64,000 bases of DNA, from assembly GCA_021513695.1 (NCBI GenBank), contig CP084166.1:1472001-1536000 (forward strand), written 5' to 3'. The stretch comes from Candidatus Heimdallarchaeum aukensis (GTDB lineage: Archaea; Asgardarchaeota; Heimdallarchaeia; Heimdallarchaeales; Heimdallarchaeaceae). How positions within the stretch are numbered: the stretch's first letter is position 1; each line of letters opens with the position of its first letter. This document shows, one piece after another, positions 8,897-16,347 of this stretch. The notes under the pieces are model-generated. The model had not been told where the DNA came from. It saw only the letters and a list, made by a program, of their open reading frames with translations, and made no database searches. The translations under genes were made by a program, and so were the position numbers.

Positions 8897-9544
8897 ATGT
8901 TAGAAGGATACTTTGCCTATATCTTTGATTTTAAGGAGAAAAGAATATGTGAAATTTTAAAATCAAACTCTGAAATATTCTCGAAACATATTCAATATTT
9001 AAAGAATGTAAAAGAGTTGGGAAAGTTACAAATTGCTGGAATAACACAACAAAAAGAAAAAGAGATAATTTTGCTTAATGTGCAAGATGAAAAGCTAGCA
9101 GAAGCAATCTTTTTGAATGATCCTTTAAGAAAATCCAACTTTTTTTGCTCATATTTTTATCGAGCAAATATCTCACATCAATCAATATCTTTTTTATGTA
9201 AACACAATAAAGACAGTAAAGAAGAGGAAATTTTAGAGAATTATAAAAAAACAAAAACAAAGTTTTTTTTAAGTTTTTTTAGAAAAAATAGGAATATTCC
9301 AAGTAGTTCTGTTATTACACAGCTAGATATATTGCATGAGCATCATGAGTATGTGAAGAAAAAGATTCTTTCTAATAAGTTCATAATAACAGGTTTAATT
9401 AATGATGAAAAAATTGGAAATATTATTCTTATATATGCTGAAGATATCGATGAAGCTACTTTACTTTTAAAAAATGACCCCATAATTTCCAAGAAACTTT
9501 TCAATTTTGAAGTATATCCATTTAATATTTTACTAGTTGGATAA
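8897..9544 (+). CDS. Tandem YciI-like (Dabb/stress-responsive alpha-beta barrel) domain protein
   Basis: Two ~95-aa halves each fit the YciI pattern (H..yl..l.e.Gkl..aG.........il..v.d...A......DP). Half 1: 'HIQYLKNVKELGKLQIAGI...ILLNVQDEKLAEAIFLNDPL'. Half 2: 'HHEYVKKKILSNKFIITGL...ILIYAEDIDEATLLLKNDPI'. Confidence 0.45.
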   Translation: MLEGYFAYIFDFKEKRICEILKSNSEIFSKHIQYLKNVKELGKLQIAGITQQKEKEIILLNVQDEKLAEAIFLNDPLRKSNFFCSYFYRANISHQSISFLCKHNKDSKEEEILENYKKTKTKFFLSFFRKNRNIPSSSVITQLDILHEHHEYVKKKILSNKFIITGLINDEKIGNIILIYAEDIDEATLLLKNDPIISKKLFNFEVYPFNILLVG

Positions 9545-10919: not shown

Positions 10920-12587
10920 TCATTTGTGAGAAAAAATCACATTAACTTCAGGTTCTTTAGAATCGATTCGTCCATAACCGACCCGCTCAAGTTGAATAAT
11001 CTCTCCAACAGGATAGTTCTGAATAGTTGGCTCTGCATAACCTTTGACAGTGATTAGTTTCTTTCCTTCAGGAATTATAAGATTCATCTTAACAAAGTCT
11101 GATGGCACCCATTGAATTACCTCTGTTCCTTTTTCAAACACTTCTGTTAGGAATTTTGCTTTATATTCTTCTCCTTCTTTTTTAATTTCTATTGTATAAA
11201 GATCCTTTAGACGCAACTTACCTTCATGTAAATCATCTTTAGCTAACCATATAACTCCATTAGTCTTTATTTTTCTTTTACCTAGTTTCTCATTTTTTGG
11301 ATGAACAGGAATTTCTGCTTCCTTCTCAGGAGCTCCTTCAACTATCAATTTTATGGGGTCAGCAACAAAAAAACAACGTTTTGCGATTGGATCAATAAGT
11401 TTCTTATTAGTTCCTGAAATATGTTTATAATCCAAATTAGTCTCAGCAAGAGAAATACCCACATTAATTGCTAATAATTTAAACGTTTCAGGATTTATAC
11501 CTCTTCTAAGTAACGCACGAATAGTCATTAGACGAGGATCATCCCAAGTAGTATTTTCTTCCTGAATTAATTTTCTTATTTCTCTACCAGAAGTTAATCC
11601 TCCAATGATATTTACTCTGCTGTAGTGAATAATTTCAGGGTTTTTTATGCCTAAAAGACTTCTAATATGATTTTGTAAAGGAGTTCGTTGAAGAAATTCT
11701 GCTCCTCGCAAAACATGTGTAACATTTAACCCATCTTCTATTGCAACTGCAAAGTCGTAAGAAGGCCAAACTCTATATTTTCTCCCTTGTAATGGGTGTT
11801 CTGCATCTATTATTCTAAAAATGGTAGGGTCTCGAAGGAGTGGATCTTTGTCTTTCATATTTCCTTTTAATCGAATAATAAATTCTCCCTCTTTTACATC
11901 GGCATGCATCGCCTTCCAAATCGAGAGATTTTCCTCTGTGCTTCTATTTCTACAAGAACATTCTTTTTCATTCCTACGTTTCTTACTTATCTCTTCTTTA
12001 CTGCATGAACAAGCATAAGCTAAATTTTCTTTAATTAGTTGCTCTCCATAGGAATAGTATTGTTCCATGTTATTTGACTCGATTATCTCTTGATCGTAAT
12101 GAATGTTGATTGCTTTCAAATCTTCTCTTATCGCATCATAATACTCTTTTTTTGGTATCTGAGGGTTGGTATCTTCAAAACGAAGAATCAATTTCCCTTT
12201 ATACTTTTGAGTGTAAAGATAGTTAATATAAAATCCAATAGCATGACCAACATGTAAATATTTACCAGGTTCTGGTGGAAGACGAGCTACAAATTTACCT
12301 TCCACAGCATTGGGTAAATCTTTCAGACTTTTTTTTCTCTTTTCTTTTTTCTCTAATAATTCAGGAGCTAAATCACGTAATTGATTTATCTGCTCTTCCA
12401 AAGTTAAAGAGTTAATTTCTGAAACAAGAGCATTAACTTTCTCAACAACTTCTTTGATATTTTTTTTAGCTTCAGGAAAAGCCCCCAAGATCTTGGGAAT
12501 GACAGATTTAGCGCTAGCTTTTCCTTTATAATCAATTGCGTTTTTAAGTACGATTTTACGAATCTCGGTATCCATTTGAATCAACAT
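10920..12587 (-). CDS. gltX: Glutamyl-tRNA synthetase (archaeal/eukaryotic-type GluRS) with an N-terminal GatB/YqeY-like appended domain
   Basis: Class I core: 'ARLPPEPGKYLHVGHA' (HIGH), 'KLILRFEDTNP' (GlxRS signature), and a C-terminal anticodon-binding beta-barrel region. The first ~95 aa ('IRKIVLKNAIDYKGKASAKSVIPKILGAFPEAKKN...') look like a YqeY/GatB-tail helical domain. Confidence 0.85.
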   Translation of the reverse strand: MLIQMDTEIRKIVLKNAIDYKGKASAKSVIPKILGAFPEAKKNIKEVVEKVNALVSEINSLTLEEQINQLRDLAPELLEKKEKRKKSLKDLPNAVEGKFVARLPPEPGKYLHVGHAIGFYINYLYTQKYKGKLILRFEDTNPQIPKKEYYDAIREDLKAINIHYDQEIIESNNMEQYYSYGEQLIKENLAYACSCSKEEISKKRRNEKECSCRNRSTEENLSIWKAMHADVKEGEFIIRLKGNMKDKDPLLRDPTIFRIIDAEHPLQGRKYRVWPSYDFAVAIEDGLNVTHVLRGAEFLQRTPLQNHIRSLLGIKNPEIIHYSRVNIIGGLTSGREIRKLIQEENTTWDDPRLMTIRALLRRGINPETFKLLAINVGISLAETNLDYKHISGTNKKLIDPIAKRCFFVADPIKLIVEGAPEKEAEIPVHPKNEKLGKRKIKTNGVIWLAKDDLHEGKLRLKDLYTIEIKKEGEEYKAKFLTEVFEKGTEVIQWVPSDFVKMNLIIPEGKKLITVKGYAEPTIQNYPVGEIIQLERVGYGRIDSKEPEVNVIFSHK

Positions 12588-13067
12588 TATTACAAAACTT
12601 ATATGAACATAGATTTGAAGAGGGTTTTTAAAATTCTTGATAACATATTTTTTGAAAATAAAGAGATAATAACAAAGATTTTAGAAAAAGAAAAGTTGTA
12701 AAAAATCAAACTTTGCAAATATTTATCGATTTATATGAAGATATTTATCTATAATATTTTCAATAGCTTTTTCCATTTTTCCTTTTCCATTTCTCTCATT
12801 TCTTCTTCTTATTTTCTTTTTCTTTAATTTCAGTTTGCTTCTGCAATTTTTGAAACACCCTTTTTTCTCCTTCTGAAAATGTTAATAACCCACACCTTCC
12901 TATATGCTCTACATTATGAGAATAATATGCAGAAAATTGTATTATGATAAAGCAAAAAAGTCATTTCAACATTTTGCAAAAGGTGTAGAATATGTTCATT
13001 AAAACAGCTAAAAAAACATAATAATTTGTTCACATGTTTTATTAATTGACTCATCTACTAGTAATCA

Positions 13068-13795: not shown

Positions 13796-14305
13796 ATGAT
13801 GCTTATGAAACTCAGTGAATATACGTACAATGGGTATGATTATAAAGTAAAATATAGACATCTTGACGACATTTATTATTATAATAACTTTGATGTTGAG
13901 GATACTTGGGATGCTTATGGATATGATCAATATACTGATACTAACCTGGTTTGGCATCATTATACCCCTAGCGAAATAAATGATTTAGAACACGACGTAA
14001 AGGTTCGAAAAATTGCTAATATGATAGCAATTGGTGCTTTGGGCATAATCTTAGCAGCCTTATTAGCCCCTGCTTTTCCTATTTCTGCTGTACTCGTTAC
14101 CATTGGGTTCAGTATACTCGAGGTTCTCATCTCAGAACGATATGACCAATTAGAAGAATTTGTAGAAAATATTAAAGCAGAGAGAGGTGATGGATGGAGC
14201 GTGTATAAAATTAGGGGAGATGACGCCTATTTTGTACCAGGTAAAGAATTCTGGAAAAATCCAATAAATTCCCCAAAATTCATTAAATGTGCAAATATTG
14301 AGTAA
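13796..14305 (+). CDS. Hypothetical membrane protein (169 aa; Tyr/Asp-rich N-terminus, one or two TM helices)
   Basis: Clean ORF with a hydrophobic core 'IAIGALGIILAALLAPAFPISAVLVTIGFSILEVLI'. Lies immediately downstream of promoter motif A and 54 bp upstream of the PQQ-repeat gene. Confidence 0.35.
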   Translation: MMLMKLSEYTYNGYDYKVKYRHLDDIYYYNNFDVEDTWDAYGYDQYTDTNLVWHHYTPSEINDLEHDVKVRKIANMIAIGALGIILAALLAPAFPISAVLVTIGFSILEVLISERYDQLEEFVENIKAERGDGWSVYKIRGDDAYFVPGKEFWKNPINSPKFIKCANIE

Positions 14306-14358: not shown

Positions 14359-16347
14359 ATGAAGTCAATAATTAAAAAAACCAGTATATATATTAAAAAA
14401 TTGTTTCAAACAATTGATGTCCCTCAAGGTAAAATAAGAGGTCTTAAGAAACCTATACTTAACAAATGGTACCATCACTTAATGAGAGTAATTATTATTT
14501 ATTTGATAGCAGCTATTGTGGTCTTTCCTGTTTACTATGGAATAAAAAATGTTGATAATTACCAATATGATAAAAATAGAACATCACCACCAAAATTGAT
14601 ATATTCTTTGGATTTAACAGATTATGCAAATGTACCAAAATATGAATGGTTTAGTGGGGATATTATTTTGCAATTTGACTGCGATAATGACTCTATTAAT
14701 GAGATTATAACTTCGATCATGGCAACTAGCAAAGATGGAAGAAAAAAAGAAACAATTGTGCTCGCATTAGATCCGCTAGAAGGTTCTATTCTTTGGACTT
14801 TCAAAACAAAAACACAAGTGTATCCACCATCTATATTAGATAGTAATAGGGATGGTATTCCAGAACTCATAATTAACTATAGTGAAAATGGGCTAAACGA
14901 AGGATTATGTGCATTAAATGTAAATAATGGTTCAATTCTGTGGAAAAAATATTATGTATCACATTTCAGGTATTATTACATTCTGACAGATATAGAAGGA
15001 GATGGAAAGTATGAGATTGTTTTGACCAGTACAGATTATGGCCATATTAGAATTTATAACGCGTCTAATGGCGATTTTTTATGGTCTTCAAACGAGATTA
15101 TAGAAAATACAATTTATGGTCATATCTTTAGCAATCCTCCAGCTATAGCTGATGTGGATAACGATGGTATAAAGGAAATAATTGCCGTTTCAAATTTTAA
15201 TACCATTTACGCGTTGAATAGTCTTTCAAACTCGATTCTCTGGGAGTTTAATGCAACGTTTTGGACTGTTTATCCTCCAATTGTTGGTGATTTAAATAAT
15301 GACAACAAATCAGAAGTAATTTTTGGATCTTATGATGGATTTGTTTATGTTCTAGATGGAATAAGTGGGTCACTTATTTGGAAATATAATACAAAATCAC
15401 GATTTGGAATAGTGATGAGTCCTTCACTTGGAGACATTAACAGTGATGGAATAATTGATATTATAGTGAGCGACTCCGATAATGTTATTCATGCAATAGA
15501 TGGAAATTCAGGAAGCCGTTTATGGTGTTTTTATGTTGAAAATATATACTCCTCACCCACGATAGGAGACTTCGATGGGGATAAAAGATTAGATGTGGTG
15601 ATAAAAACAGAAGAAAAAATTCATGCAATAAAAGGAAATAATGGTAAATTATTATGGTCAATTCCACTAGATGCTTATTTAATCAGCGCATCAGTACCTA
15701 TTTTTATAGTAGACGTGGACGAGAAGAAAGACATGGAAATAGTCACTTTAGAAGATAAAAAATCGACAAATGATACTTTTCTTAACATTTATGACTTTGA
15801 ATCTGAAAAATACATTCATTCATATTGGAATCCTTTTGGAGGGAATACAGGAAGAACAAACAGCTTGGTGGAAGTAGATAGAGATAATGATGGTTTATCC
15901 AATAAATACGAAAAATATATTGGAACAAAGTATAATGAAAAAGATACAGACAAAGATAAACTACCAGACTGGTACGAGCACATATGGACAAAAACTGACC
16001 CAACAATAGAAGATACAGATAAAAATGGAATCACAGACAAAGAAGAAGACCTAGATGGAGACAAACTGACAAACTATGAAGAACTAAAAAAAGGAACAAA
16101 CCCACTAAAAAAAGATACAGACAAAGATCTAATAAAAGACAATAGAGACCCAAATCCACTATACCCAGAAGAATGGATATTTTATAGTGCCTCTCTTATA
16201 ATTTTCAGCTTCATTACAGTAAAGATTATTTTACGTAAAAAAAGAAAAAGAAAAGGAAATACTACTCCGTATTTTGTTTGCAAATATTGTGGTCATTCTT
16301 CAAAAGAGGAAGATATTAGATACTGCCCAGAATGTGGAAAAAAGTAA
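14359..16347 (+). CDS. Type-II membrane protein: PQQ-like beta-propeller repeats, then thrombospondin-type-3 (D-x-D-x-D) Ca-binding repeats, a C-terminal TM helix and a cytoplasmic zinc ribbon
   Basis: N-terminal signal anchor 'VIIIYLIAAIVVFPVYY'. At least 7 repeats of the PQQ/BamB pattern (e.g. 'SILWTFKT', 'SILWKKYY', 'DFLWSS', 'SILWEFN', 'SLIWKYN', 'SRLWCF', 'KLLWSIPL'), interspersed with 'D.DGD/DINSDG' loops. TSP3-like 'DTDKDKLPDW..DTDKNGITDKEEDLDGDKLTNYEE..DTDKD'. TM 'IFYSASLIIFSFITVKII' and C-terminal 'CKYCGHSSKEEDIRYCPECG'. Confidence 0.6.
   Translation: MKSIIKKTSIYIKKLFQTIDVPQGKIRGLKKPILNKWYHHLMRVIIIYLIAAIVVFPVYYGIKNVDNYQYDKNRTSPPKLIYSLDLTDYANVPKYEWFSGDIILQFDCDNDSINEIITSIMATSKDGRKKETIVLALDPLEGSILWTFKTKTQVYPPSILDSNRDGIPELIINYSENGLNEGLCALNVNNGSILWKKYYVSHFRYYYILTDIEGDGKYEIVLTSTDYGHIRIYNASNGDFLWSSNEIIENTIYGHIFSNPPAIADVDNDGIKEIIAVSNFNTIYALNSLSNSILWEFNATFWTVYPPIVGDLNNDNKSEVIFGSYDGFVYVLDGISGSLIWKYNTKSRFGIVMSPSLGDINSDGIIDIIVSDSDNVIHAIDGNSGSRLWCFYVENIYSSPTIGDFDGDKRLDVVIKTEEKIHAIKGNNGKLLWSIPLDAYLISASVPIFIVDVDEKKDMEIVTLEDKKSTNDTFLNIYDFESEKYIHSYWNPFGGNTGRTNSLVEVDRDNDGLSNKYEKYIGTKYNEKDTDKDKLPDWYEHIWTKTDPTIEDTDKNGITDKEEDLDGDKLTNYEELKKGTNPLKKDTDKDLIKDNRDPNPLYPEEWIFYSASLIIFSFITVKIILRKKRKRKGNTTPYFVCKYCGHSSKEEDIRYCPECGKK

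What the first reader, a model, noticed from the sequence alone, without database searches (positions are those of the whole stretch)
10920..12587. Archaeal GluRS carrying an N-terminal GatB/YqeY-like appended domain
The first ~95 residues ('IRKIVLKNAIDYKGKASAKSVIPKILGAFPEAKKNIKEVVEKVNALVSEIN...') resemble the helical YqeY/GatB-tail domain. In eukaryotic GlnRS this domain is appended N-terminally; in Deinococcus GlnRS it is appended C-terminally and aids tRNA binding. If confirmed in an archaeon, and particularly in an Asgard-like one, this domain arrangement would bear on the origin of eukaryotic GlnRS/GluRS appended domains.
Basis: inference. Interest (0 to 1): 0.5.

Follow-up and report, generated by a model that had tools for sequence, protein, structure and literature searches.

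The report
Ordinary archaeal GluRS with standard N-domain
This is the normal glutamyl-tRNA synthetase of a Heimdall (Asgard) archaeon; its small helical N-terminal domain is present in every archaeal GluRS examined here, was already labelled a 'YQEY domain' in 2010, and shows no special link to the eukaryotic GlnRS appended domain.

The parts
10920..12587 (-). Complete GluRS ORF (555 aa from M1; stop codon 10920-10922)
   Evidence: ORF list. NCBIfam PRK04156 557.4 bits (cutoff 516) and TIGR00463 505.8 bits (cutoff 401.75). 100% identical to Ca. Heimdallarchaeum aukensis glutamate--tRNA ligase. Aligns end to end with M. thermautotrophicus GluRS 3AII, E=4e-121.
12573..12575 (-). Alternative and probably true start codon (M5)
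   Evidence: The closest homologue (P0002, 69% identical) and many others begin at the position aligned to M5. Sequence read.
12598..12606 (-). TATA-box-like element TCATATAAG, about 27 nt upstream of the M5 ATG
   Evidence: Read directly from the sequence. Its promoter role is inferred only from the typical archaeal TATA-to-start spacing, and was not tested.
12408..12575 (-). Three-helix core of the N-terminal domain (residues 5-60; helices 2-19, 26-36, 38-59)
12510..12542 (-). Most conserved patch of the domain: N16-A17-x4-G22-K23-A24 at the H1-H2 loop (residues 16-26)
   Evidence: N16 and A17 100%, G22 99%, K23 82%, A24 93%. This loop has the highest mean information (2.96 bits). The motif NAx4GxA is in 62 of 71 sequences.
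12336..12407 (-). Helices 4 and 5 of the N-terminal domain (residues 61-84)
   Evidence: AlphaFold2 helices 63-73 and 75-84, pLDDT 86-95 up to about residue 80. Q66, L70 and P75 are at least 93% conserved.
12297..12335 (-). Lys-rich linker to the catalytic domain, predicted with low confidence and probably flexible (residues 85-97, KKSLKDLPNAVEG)
   Evidence: pLDDT 51-53. Mean K+R fraction 0.24 over residues 75-96 in the family. The 3AII crystal model begins at residue 90 and the paper calls residues 1-85 structurally disordered.
11394..12290 (-). Class I Glu/Gln catalytic (Rossmann) domain, residues 100-398, with HIGH motif HVGH at 112-115 and CxC-x14-CxC at 193-212
   Evidence: Pfam PF00749 E=4.6e-69. 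The cysteine motif aligns with CTC...CHC of 3AII, whose structure contains one zinc ion.
11175..11384 (-). First anticodon-binding Pfam domain (tRNA-synt_1c_C), residues 402-471
   Evidence: Pfam PF03950 E=1.3e-16.
10962..11120 (-). Second anticodon-binding Pfam domain (tRNA-synt_1c_C2), residues 490-542
   Evidence: Pfam PF20974 E=6.8e-08.

Best explanation
The gene encodes the canonical archaeal-type glutamyl-tRNA synthetase (the GlxRS-A family, whose reference structure is M. thermautotrophicus 3AII) of a Heimdallarchaeon. Shown here: the protein has the full family architecture. This is an N-terminal helical domain of about 85 residues (a three-helix core plus two short helices), a Lys-rich linker predicted with low confidence, a Rossmann catalytic domain with HIGH and a CxC-x14-CxC motif that aligns with the equivalent cysteines of the zinc-containing 3AII structure, and two beta-barrel anticodon-binding domains. 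The N-terminal domain is an ancestral, family-wide feature of archaeal GluRS and not an Asgard-specific addition. Its three-helix core has the same general fold as the C-terminal subdomain of YqeY, but common ancestry with YqeY/GatB is not demonstrated. Inferred, not shown: the domain acts as a tethered auxiliary tRNA-binding module. It swings on the flexible basic linker, which would explain why it is disordered in the tRNA-free crystal. It would contact tRNA(Glu)/tRNA(Gln) through the conserved, positively charged H1-loop-H2 face (K11, N16, A17, G22, K23, A24, K32) and raise tRNA affinity, as the YqeY domain does for Deinococcus GlnRS and the NTD for yeast GlnRS. Because archaea are reported to lack GlnRS, the enzyme is expected to be non-discriminating and to feed Glu-tRNA(Gln) to GatDE.
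Confidence: 0.85

Rival explanations
1. The N-terminal domain is a true but highly diverged homologue of the YqeY-C/GatB-tail tRNA D-loop sensor, as the published 'YQEY domain' label implies. It would recognise the tRNA elbow with an equivalent conserved pocket.
Against: 0 of 71 members hit PF02637 or PF09424 at E<=1. hmmsearch of the PDB finds no GatB or YqeY chain at E<=10. hhalign probability is 2-20% against 97.6% for YqeY-GatB and 87% for YqeY-GlnRS NTD with the same alignments. Foldseek finds nothing. The three weak sequence registers found are mutually inconsistent: the GKA loop pairs with the GatB GKANP loop, helices H3-H4 pair with YqeY alpha1-alpha2, or the alignment is collinear H1-H3. 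In the collinear register, the only one compatible with a full-length sequential three-helix superposition, the conserved GluRS loop falls in a different loop from the GatB pocket. Pro at the last motif position occurs in only 16 of 71 sequences. Column-shuffle nulls are lenient for any pair of helical bundles.
Confidence: 0.3
2. The archaeal N-domain is the direct evolutionary precursor of the tail subdomain of the eukaryotic GlnRS N-terminal domain. That is the first reader's evolutionary suggestion.
Against: hhalign of the archaeal N-domain against 111 eukaryotic GlnRS tail-subdomain sequences gives 0.6-1% probability and score 12.4, which 15 of 100 shuffles reach. The same eukaryotic alignment matches YqeY-C at 87% and GatB tails at 81%. 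The eukaryotic domain is therefore far closer to YqeY/GatB than to the archaeal GluRS domain. The eukaryotic NTD has two subdomains and the archaeal one does not. The solved eukaryotic GluRS chain (7WRS) aligns only from query residue 88. The domain is not enriched in or special to Asgard archaea.
Confidence: 0.07
3. The domain is an unrelated small helical bundle whose main role is protein-protein interaction, for example docking to GatDE in the archaeal transamidosome or to other translation factors, and not tRNA binding.
Against: No evidence links the domain to GatDE, and the transamidosome paper does not mention it. The most conserved face carries conserved lysines and the linker is Lys-rich, which is typical of RNA-binding appendages.
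Confidence: 0.15
4. The extension is an annotation artefact from a mis-called start, and the real protein begins near the catalytic core.
For: There is some uncertainty between M1 and M5, and a TATA-like element lies just upstream.
Against: There is no in-frame ATG between M5 and the HIGH motif. The region is conserved as protein across archaeal phyla, is present in the crystallised full-length M. thermautotrophicus enzyme, and folds confidently.
Confidence: 0.01

Closest known systems
Methanothermobacter thermautotrophicus non-discriminating GluRS (PDB 3AII; GlxRS-A family; NCBIfam PRK04156 / TIGR00463)
   Same: Same length and domain order. It aligns over residues 8-555 (E=4e-121), including the N-terminal domain (query 8-96 to 3AII 7-94), the HIGH motif, the CxC...CxC cysteine motif and both beta-barrels.
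   Different: Only ordinary sequence divergence. Nearest relatives outside Heimdallarchaeaceae are about 45-56% identical. The N-domain is disordered in the crystal, so its fold is known only from prediction.
YqeY proteins and AIM41 (Pfam PF09424; PDB 1NG6, 8XJG, 8XJE, 9IHR) and the GatB/GatE tail domain (PF02637)
Eukaryotic GlnRS N-terminal tRNA-binding domain (Pfam PF04558/PF04557; PDB 3TL4, 4H3S, 4YE6)
   Different: The eukaryotic NTD is about 190 residues with two subdomains, and its tail matches YqeY/GatB at 81-87% by hhalign. The archaeal domain is about 85 residues and shows no profile similarity to it (at or below 1%).
Deinococcus radiodurans GlnRS C-terminal YqeY domain (PDB 2HZ7)
   Same: A flexible, crystallographically invisible helical appendage on a GlxRS-type enzyme, which in Deinococcus enables productive tRNA binding.
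   Different: The Deinococcus domain is C-terminal, about 215-220 residues including the linker, and is an unambiguous GatB-tail homologue (phmmer E=4e-5 with a GatB-tail probe).

Membership tests
Archaeal glutamate--tRNA ligase (GlxRS-A; NCBIfam PRK04156 / TIGR00463) | Full-length match above the curated equivalog cutoffs | tested here: met
   PRK04156 557.4 bits (cutoff 516), residues 4-555 to model positions 4-567. TIGR00463 505.8 bits (cutoff 401.75).
Archaeal glutamate--tRNA ligase (GlxRS-A; NCBIfam PRK04156 / TIGR00463) | Class I Rossmann catalytic domain with HIGH signature | tested here: met
   PF00749 E=4.6e-69 over residues 100-398. HVGH at residues 112-115 (sequence).
Archaeal glutamate--tRNA ligase (GlxRS-A; NCBIfam PRK04156 / TIGR00463) | Beta-barrel (GlnRS-type) anticodon-binding domains, not the bacterial alpha-helical cage | tested here: met
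   PF03950 E=1.3e-16 and PF20974 E=6.8e-8. Aligns to the 3AII beta-barrels.
Archaeal glutamate--tRNA ligase (GlxRS-A; NCBIfam PRK04156 / TIGR00463) | Family-typical N-terminal extension of about 90 residues | tested here: met
   The N-terminal 103 aa alone hit PRK04156 positions 4-105 (E=4.4e-22) and TIGR00463 (E=2.3e-15). The extension is present in all 120 listed homologues.
Archaeal glutamate--tRNA ligase (GlxRS-A; NCBIfam PRK04156 / TIGR00463) | Charges tRNA(Glu) and also tRNA(Gln) (non-discriminating) | not testable with these tools
   Needs an aminoacylation assay. Expected because archaea are reported to lack GlnRS (PMC1865053).
GatB/YqeY domain (Pfam PF02637 GatB_Yqey, PF09424 YqeY) | Significant match to the Pfam HMM | tested here: not met
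   No hit at E<=10 for this protein or its N-terminus. 0 of 71 archaeal N-domains hit either model at E<=1.
GatB/YqeY domain (Pfam PF02637 GatB_Yqey, PF09424 YqeY) | Profile-profile (HH) similarity comparable to that between accepted members | tested here: not met
   Archaeal N-domain against YqeY-C 15-20%, against GatB tails 2-3%. Controls: YqeY-C against GatB 97.6%, YqeY-C against GlnRS NTD 87%. Scores are only slightly above shuffled nulls.
GatB/YqeY domain (Pfam PF02637 GatB_Yqey, PF09424 YqeY) | Three-helix antiparallel bundle fold of YqeY-C / the GatB tail | tested here: inconclusive
GatB/YqeY domain (Pfam PF02637 GatB_Yqey, PF09424 YqeY) | Conserved hydrophobic pocket (S. aureus GatB V449, M452, G457, A459, P461) on the last helix-loop-helix | tested here: inconclusive
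   The spacing A17-x4-G22-x-A24 matches and is the most conserved patch. Pro is present in only 16 of 71. In the collinear register the motif maps to a different loop. Residue-level structural superposition was not available.
GatB/YqeY domain (Pfam PF02637 GatB_Yqey, PF09424 YqeY) | Binds the tRNA D-loop/elbow | not testable with these tools
   Needs binding or structural experiments.
Eukaryotic GlnRS N-terminal domain (Pfam PF04558 / PF04557) | Match to the Pfam models or to a family profile | tested here: not met
   No Pfam hit. hhalign against 72 full-NTD and 111 tail-subdomain sequences gives 0.4-1%. 15 of 100 shuffles reach the observed score.
Eukaryotic GlnRS N-terminal domain (Pfam PF04558 / PF04557) | Two-subdomain architecture (GatB helical-like plus tail-like) | tested here: not met
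   The archaeal domain is a single bundle of about 85 residues with no internal repeat. The human and yeast NTD sequences used here are about 190 residues.

The most novel reading that the evidence does not exclude
The archaeal GluRS N-terminal domain could be an ancient, extremely diverged member of the YqeY-C/GatB-tail tRNA-elbow sensor family that was already attached to the GlxRS ancestor before eukaryotes arose. If so, the synthetase and the amidotransferase of the indirect Gln-tRNA pathway would read the same tRNA feature with homologous modules, and the eukaryotic GlnRS NTD would be an elaboration or replacement of a pre-existing archaeal sensor. The evidence does not exclude this: there is fold similarity, above-null profile scores, and a shared x4-G-x-A spacing in the conserved loop. 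It also does not establish it.
Probability: 0.12. Interest if true: 0.45.

Novelty: already known. Interest (0 to 1): 0.12.

Why it matters
As it stands, it matters little. The gene is a housekeeping archaeal GluRS whose N-terminal domain is a documented family feature (Nureki et al. 2010; AARS Online 2024) and is already captured by the NCBI annotation models. The useful result is negative. The domain is not Asgard-specific, and by profile comparison it is not related to the eukaryotic GlnRS N-terminal domain, so it offers no new handle on the origin of eukaryotic aaRS appendages. Two points are worth a specialist's note. First, the published 'YQEY domain' label rests on weak ground: fold-level similarity only, with no HMM or HH support. 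Second, the function of this universally conserved archaeal domain appears never to have been tested experimentally, at least in the literature searched here.

Tried and rejected
(1) Pfam on the whole protein, on residues 1-103 and on 71 family members individually: no GatB_Yqey, YqeY or GlnRS-NTD hit, only scattered coiled-coil-like noise.

(2) hmmsearch of the N-domain profile against all PDB sequences at E<=10: only 3AII.

(3) Foldseek against the PDB: nothing better than E=7.

(4) Circular-permutation hypothesis. It was prompted by two non-collinear local hhalign matches: the GKA loop to the GatB GKANP loop, and H3-H4 to YqeY alpha1-alpha2. Permuted alignments gave no real gain (best 63% over only 18 columns), so it was dropped.

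(5) Internal duplication within the domain: none (probability 0.3%).

(6) afdb50 fold search, to look for the domain in other architectures: the library was unavailable.

(7) Genomic context. Neighbours are an MFS transporter, an F420H2-dependent quinone-reductase-like protein, a YCII-domain protein, an acyl-CoA dehydrogenase and an aldehyde:ferredoxin oxidoreductase, so there is no functional linkage. There are no tRNA genes in the window.

(8) Literature searches for experiments on the archaeal GluRS N-domain: none found.

(9) A catalytic-core phylogeny against eukaryotic GluRS/GlnRS was not done.

Full report
1. The observation. Pfam finds the class I Glu/Gln catalytic domain at residues 100-398 (E=4.6e-69) and the two anticodon-binding domains at 402-471 and 490-542. 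Residues 1-~97 are covered by no Pfam model. So the description is accurate: a segment of about 95 residues does precede the catalytic core.

2. What the protein is. Both NCBIfam equivalog models for archaeal glutamate--tRNA ligase match end to end and above their curated cutoffs (PRK04156 557 bits against 516; TIGR00463 506 against 402). The solved M. thermautotrophicus non-discriminating GluRS (3AII, 553 aa) aligns over residues 8-555 at E=4e-121. The protein is 100% identical to the deposited glutamate--tRNA ligase of Candidatus Heimdallarchaeum aukensis, on a 3.08-Mb contig. That species belongs to Heimdallarchaeia within the kingdom Promethearchaeati, the formal name of the Asgard archaea (from my own knowledge). 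The guess of an Asgard-like source was right. Neighbouring genes are functionally unrelated and there are no tRNA genes in the window.

3. The N-terminal segment is a standard part of archaeal GluRS.
- The first 103 residues on their own match the N-terminal ~100 positions of PRK04156 (E=4.4e-22) and TIGR00463 (E=2.3e-15).
- All 120 listed homologues are 534-612 aa long and cover 95-100% of the query. The named ones come from Woesearchaeota, Nitrososphaerota/Thaumarchaeota, Euryarchaeota, Thermoplasmatota, Aigarchaeota, Thermoproteota and Asgard lineages.
- Their N-terminal segments are 92-133 residues long (median 98) and share the consensus I.K.AL.NA..H.GKA..GAVIGK.L.E.PELK ... V.EVN.L..EEQ...L...APELLEKKK...K.LPELPNA.
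- A profile of 71 of these segments finds 3AII residues 4-94 at E=4e-24.
- Nureki et al. [quoted passage not shown] The feature, and even the YqeY label, are therefore already in the literature, and the feature is not specific to Asgard archaea.

4. It is not a mis-called start. There is no in-frame ATG between M5 and the HIGH motif (HVGH, residues 112-115). The segment is conserved as protein across phyla. AlphaFold2 predicts a compact helical fold with high confidence: helices at 2-19, 26-36, 38-59, 63-73 and 75-84, with pLDDT above 90 for about residues 10-75, followed by a low-confidence Lys-rich linker at 85-97. The three-helix core alone gives pLDDT 93 and pTM 0.78. The only start-site question is M1 against M5. 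The closest homologue and many others begin at the M5-equivalent position, and a TATA-like TCATATAAG lies about 27 nt upstream of the M5 ATG. That is compatible with a leaderless mRNA starting at M5, but this is inference.

5. Is the domain GatB/YqeY-like? Sequence tests. Pfam GatB_Yqey (PF02637), YqeY (PF09424) and the GlnRS NTD models (PF04558/PF04557) give no hit at E<=10 for this protein, and no hit at E<=1 for any of 71 family members scanned individually. The family profile finds no GatB, GatE, YqeY or GlnRS-NTD chain in the PDB at E<=10.

For profile-profile tests I assembled real comparison sets:
- 140 diverse YqeY proteins.
- Five GatB, GatE and Deinococcus GlnRS tails read from PDB alignments.
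- 111 eukaryotic GlnRS NTD tail subdomains carrying PF04558/PF04557.

With these, hhalign recovers the accepted relationships strongly: YqeY-C against GatB tail 97.6% (E=3e-12), YqeY-C against GlnRS NTD tail 87% (E=4e-6), and GatB tail against GlnRS tail 81%. The archaeal N-domain reaches only 15-20% against YqeY-C, 2-3% against GatB tails and at most 1% against the GlnRS NTD.

Against column-shuffled nulls:
- The YqeY score is slightly above background (20.5 against a maximum of 16.4, 0 of 100).
- The GatB score is marginal (2 of 100 reach it).
- The GlnRS score is indistinguishable from noise (15 of 100 reach it).
- A forced global collinear alignment of the three-helix core to YqeY-C scores 14.1 against a null maximum of 7.5 (0 of 60), with 22% identity. 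This null is lenient, because it destroys helix periodicity.

The weak local matches imply three mutually inconsistent registers. A circular-permutation test and an internal-repeat test were both negative.

7. The conserved patch. The best-conserved part of the domain is the H1-H2 loop and its flanks: N16 and A17 100%, G22 99%, K23 82%, A24 93%, and the motif NAx4GxA in 62 of 71 sequences. However, Pro follows in only 16 of 71 sequences. In the collinear register, the only one compatible with a full-length sequential three-helix superposition, this loop corresponds to the first loop of YqeY-C, whereas the GatB pocket lies on the second. I could not obtain residue-level structural alignments to settle this.

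8. Mechanism.
- Shown: the architecture, the family-wide conservation, the confident fold, the low-confidence linker, and the modest positive charge of residues 1-37 (mean +2.2) with conserved lysines and a Lys-rich linker (K+R fraction 0.24).
- Inferred: a tethered auxiliary tRNA-binding module. This is by analogy with the Deinococcus GlnRS YqeY domain and the yeast GlnRS NTD, and is consistent with its disorder in the tRNA-free 3AII crystal.
- A protein-protein docking role, for example in the GluRS-GatDE transamidosome, cannot be excluded.
- No experimental study of the domain was found.

9. Bearing on eukaryotic appended domains. The domain is pan-archaeal, so it is not an Asgard innovation. 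And it shows no detectable profile relationship to the eukaryotic GlnRS NTD, while that NTD is clearly related to YqeY/GatB using the same data. The solved eukaryotic GluRS chain 7WRS aligns only from query residue 88, just before the Rossmann fold. Nothing here favours vertical descent of the eukaryotic GlnRS NTD from the archaeal GluRS N-domain over Grant et al.'s recruitment from an amidotransferase-like source.

10. Verdict. The feature is already known and ordinary, and interest is low. The residual open points are whether the 'YQEY' label reflects true homology (my estimate about 0.3) and what the domain does.

Noticed in passing
window 12573-12606 (minus strand): The deposited protein starts at M1 (ATG 12587-12585), but the closest homologue and many others begin at the residue aligned to M5 (ATG 12575-12573). 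A TATA-like TCATATAAG lies about 27 nt upstream of the M5 ATG, which suggests a leaderless transcript starting at M5.
   Followed up: partly
window 11952-12011 (minus strand; residues 193-212): A CxC-x14-CxC motif (C193, C195, C210, C212) in the catalytic-domain insertion aligns with CTC...CHC of M. thermautotrophicus GluRS, whose crystal structure contains one zinc ion. A zinc site is therefore probably conserved.
   Followed up: partly
not in the window: alignments built from P0241-P0390, P0391-P0510 and PDB-derived GatB tails: With modest alignments, hhalign links the tail subdomain of the eukaryotic GlnRS N-terminal domain to YqeY-C (87%, E=4e-6) and to GatB tails (81%). [quoted passage not shown]
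   Followed up: partly
window 14359-16347 (+): A 662-aa ORF with FG-GAP/beta-propeller repeats and a bacterial TSP3 repeat, a hydrophobic stretch near the C-terminus and a terminal CxxC...CxxC zinc-ribbon-like tail. It is probably a surface or secreted propeller protein.
   Followed up: partly
window 13796-14305 (+): A 169-aa ORF with an internal hydrophobic segment and no Pfam match at E<=0.001.
   Followed up: no
window 1-64000: ARAGORN finds no tRNA gene in the whole 64-kb window. GC content is uniformly low (29-36%).
   Followed up: no
homologues P0039, P0045, P0089, P0107: Four archaeal GluRS homologues carry roughly 25-35 extra residues ahead of the conserved N-domain. In P0045 and P0107 these are hydrophobic, low-complexity leaders. 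They are most likely over-extended start-codon calls in metagenome annotations.
   Followed up: no
window 8897-9544 (+): A 215-aa ORF immediately downstream of the neighbouring MFS transporter gene has a YCII-related domain hit (E=9e-9) covering only residues 22-86. The rest is unassigned.
   Followed up: no
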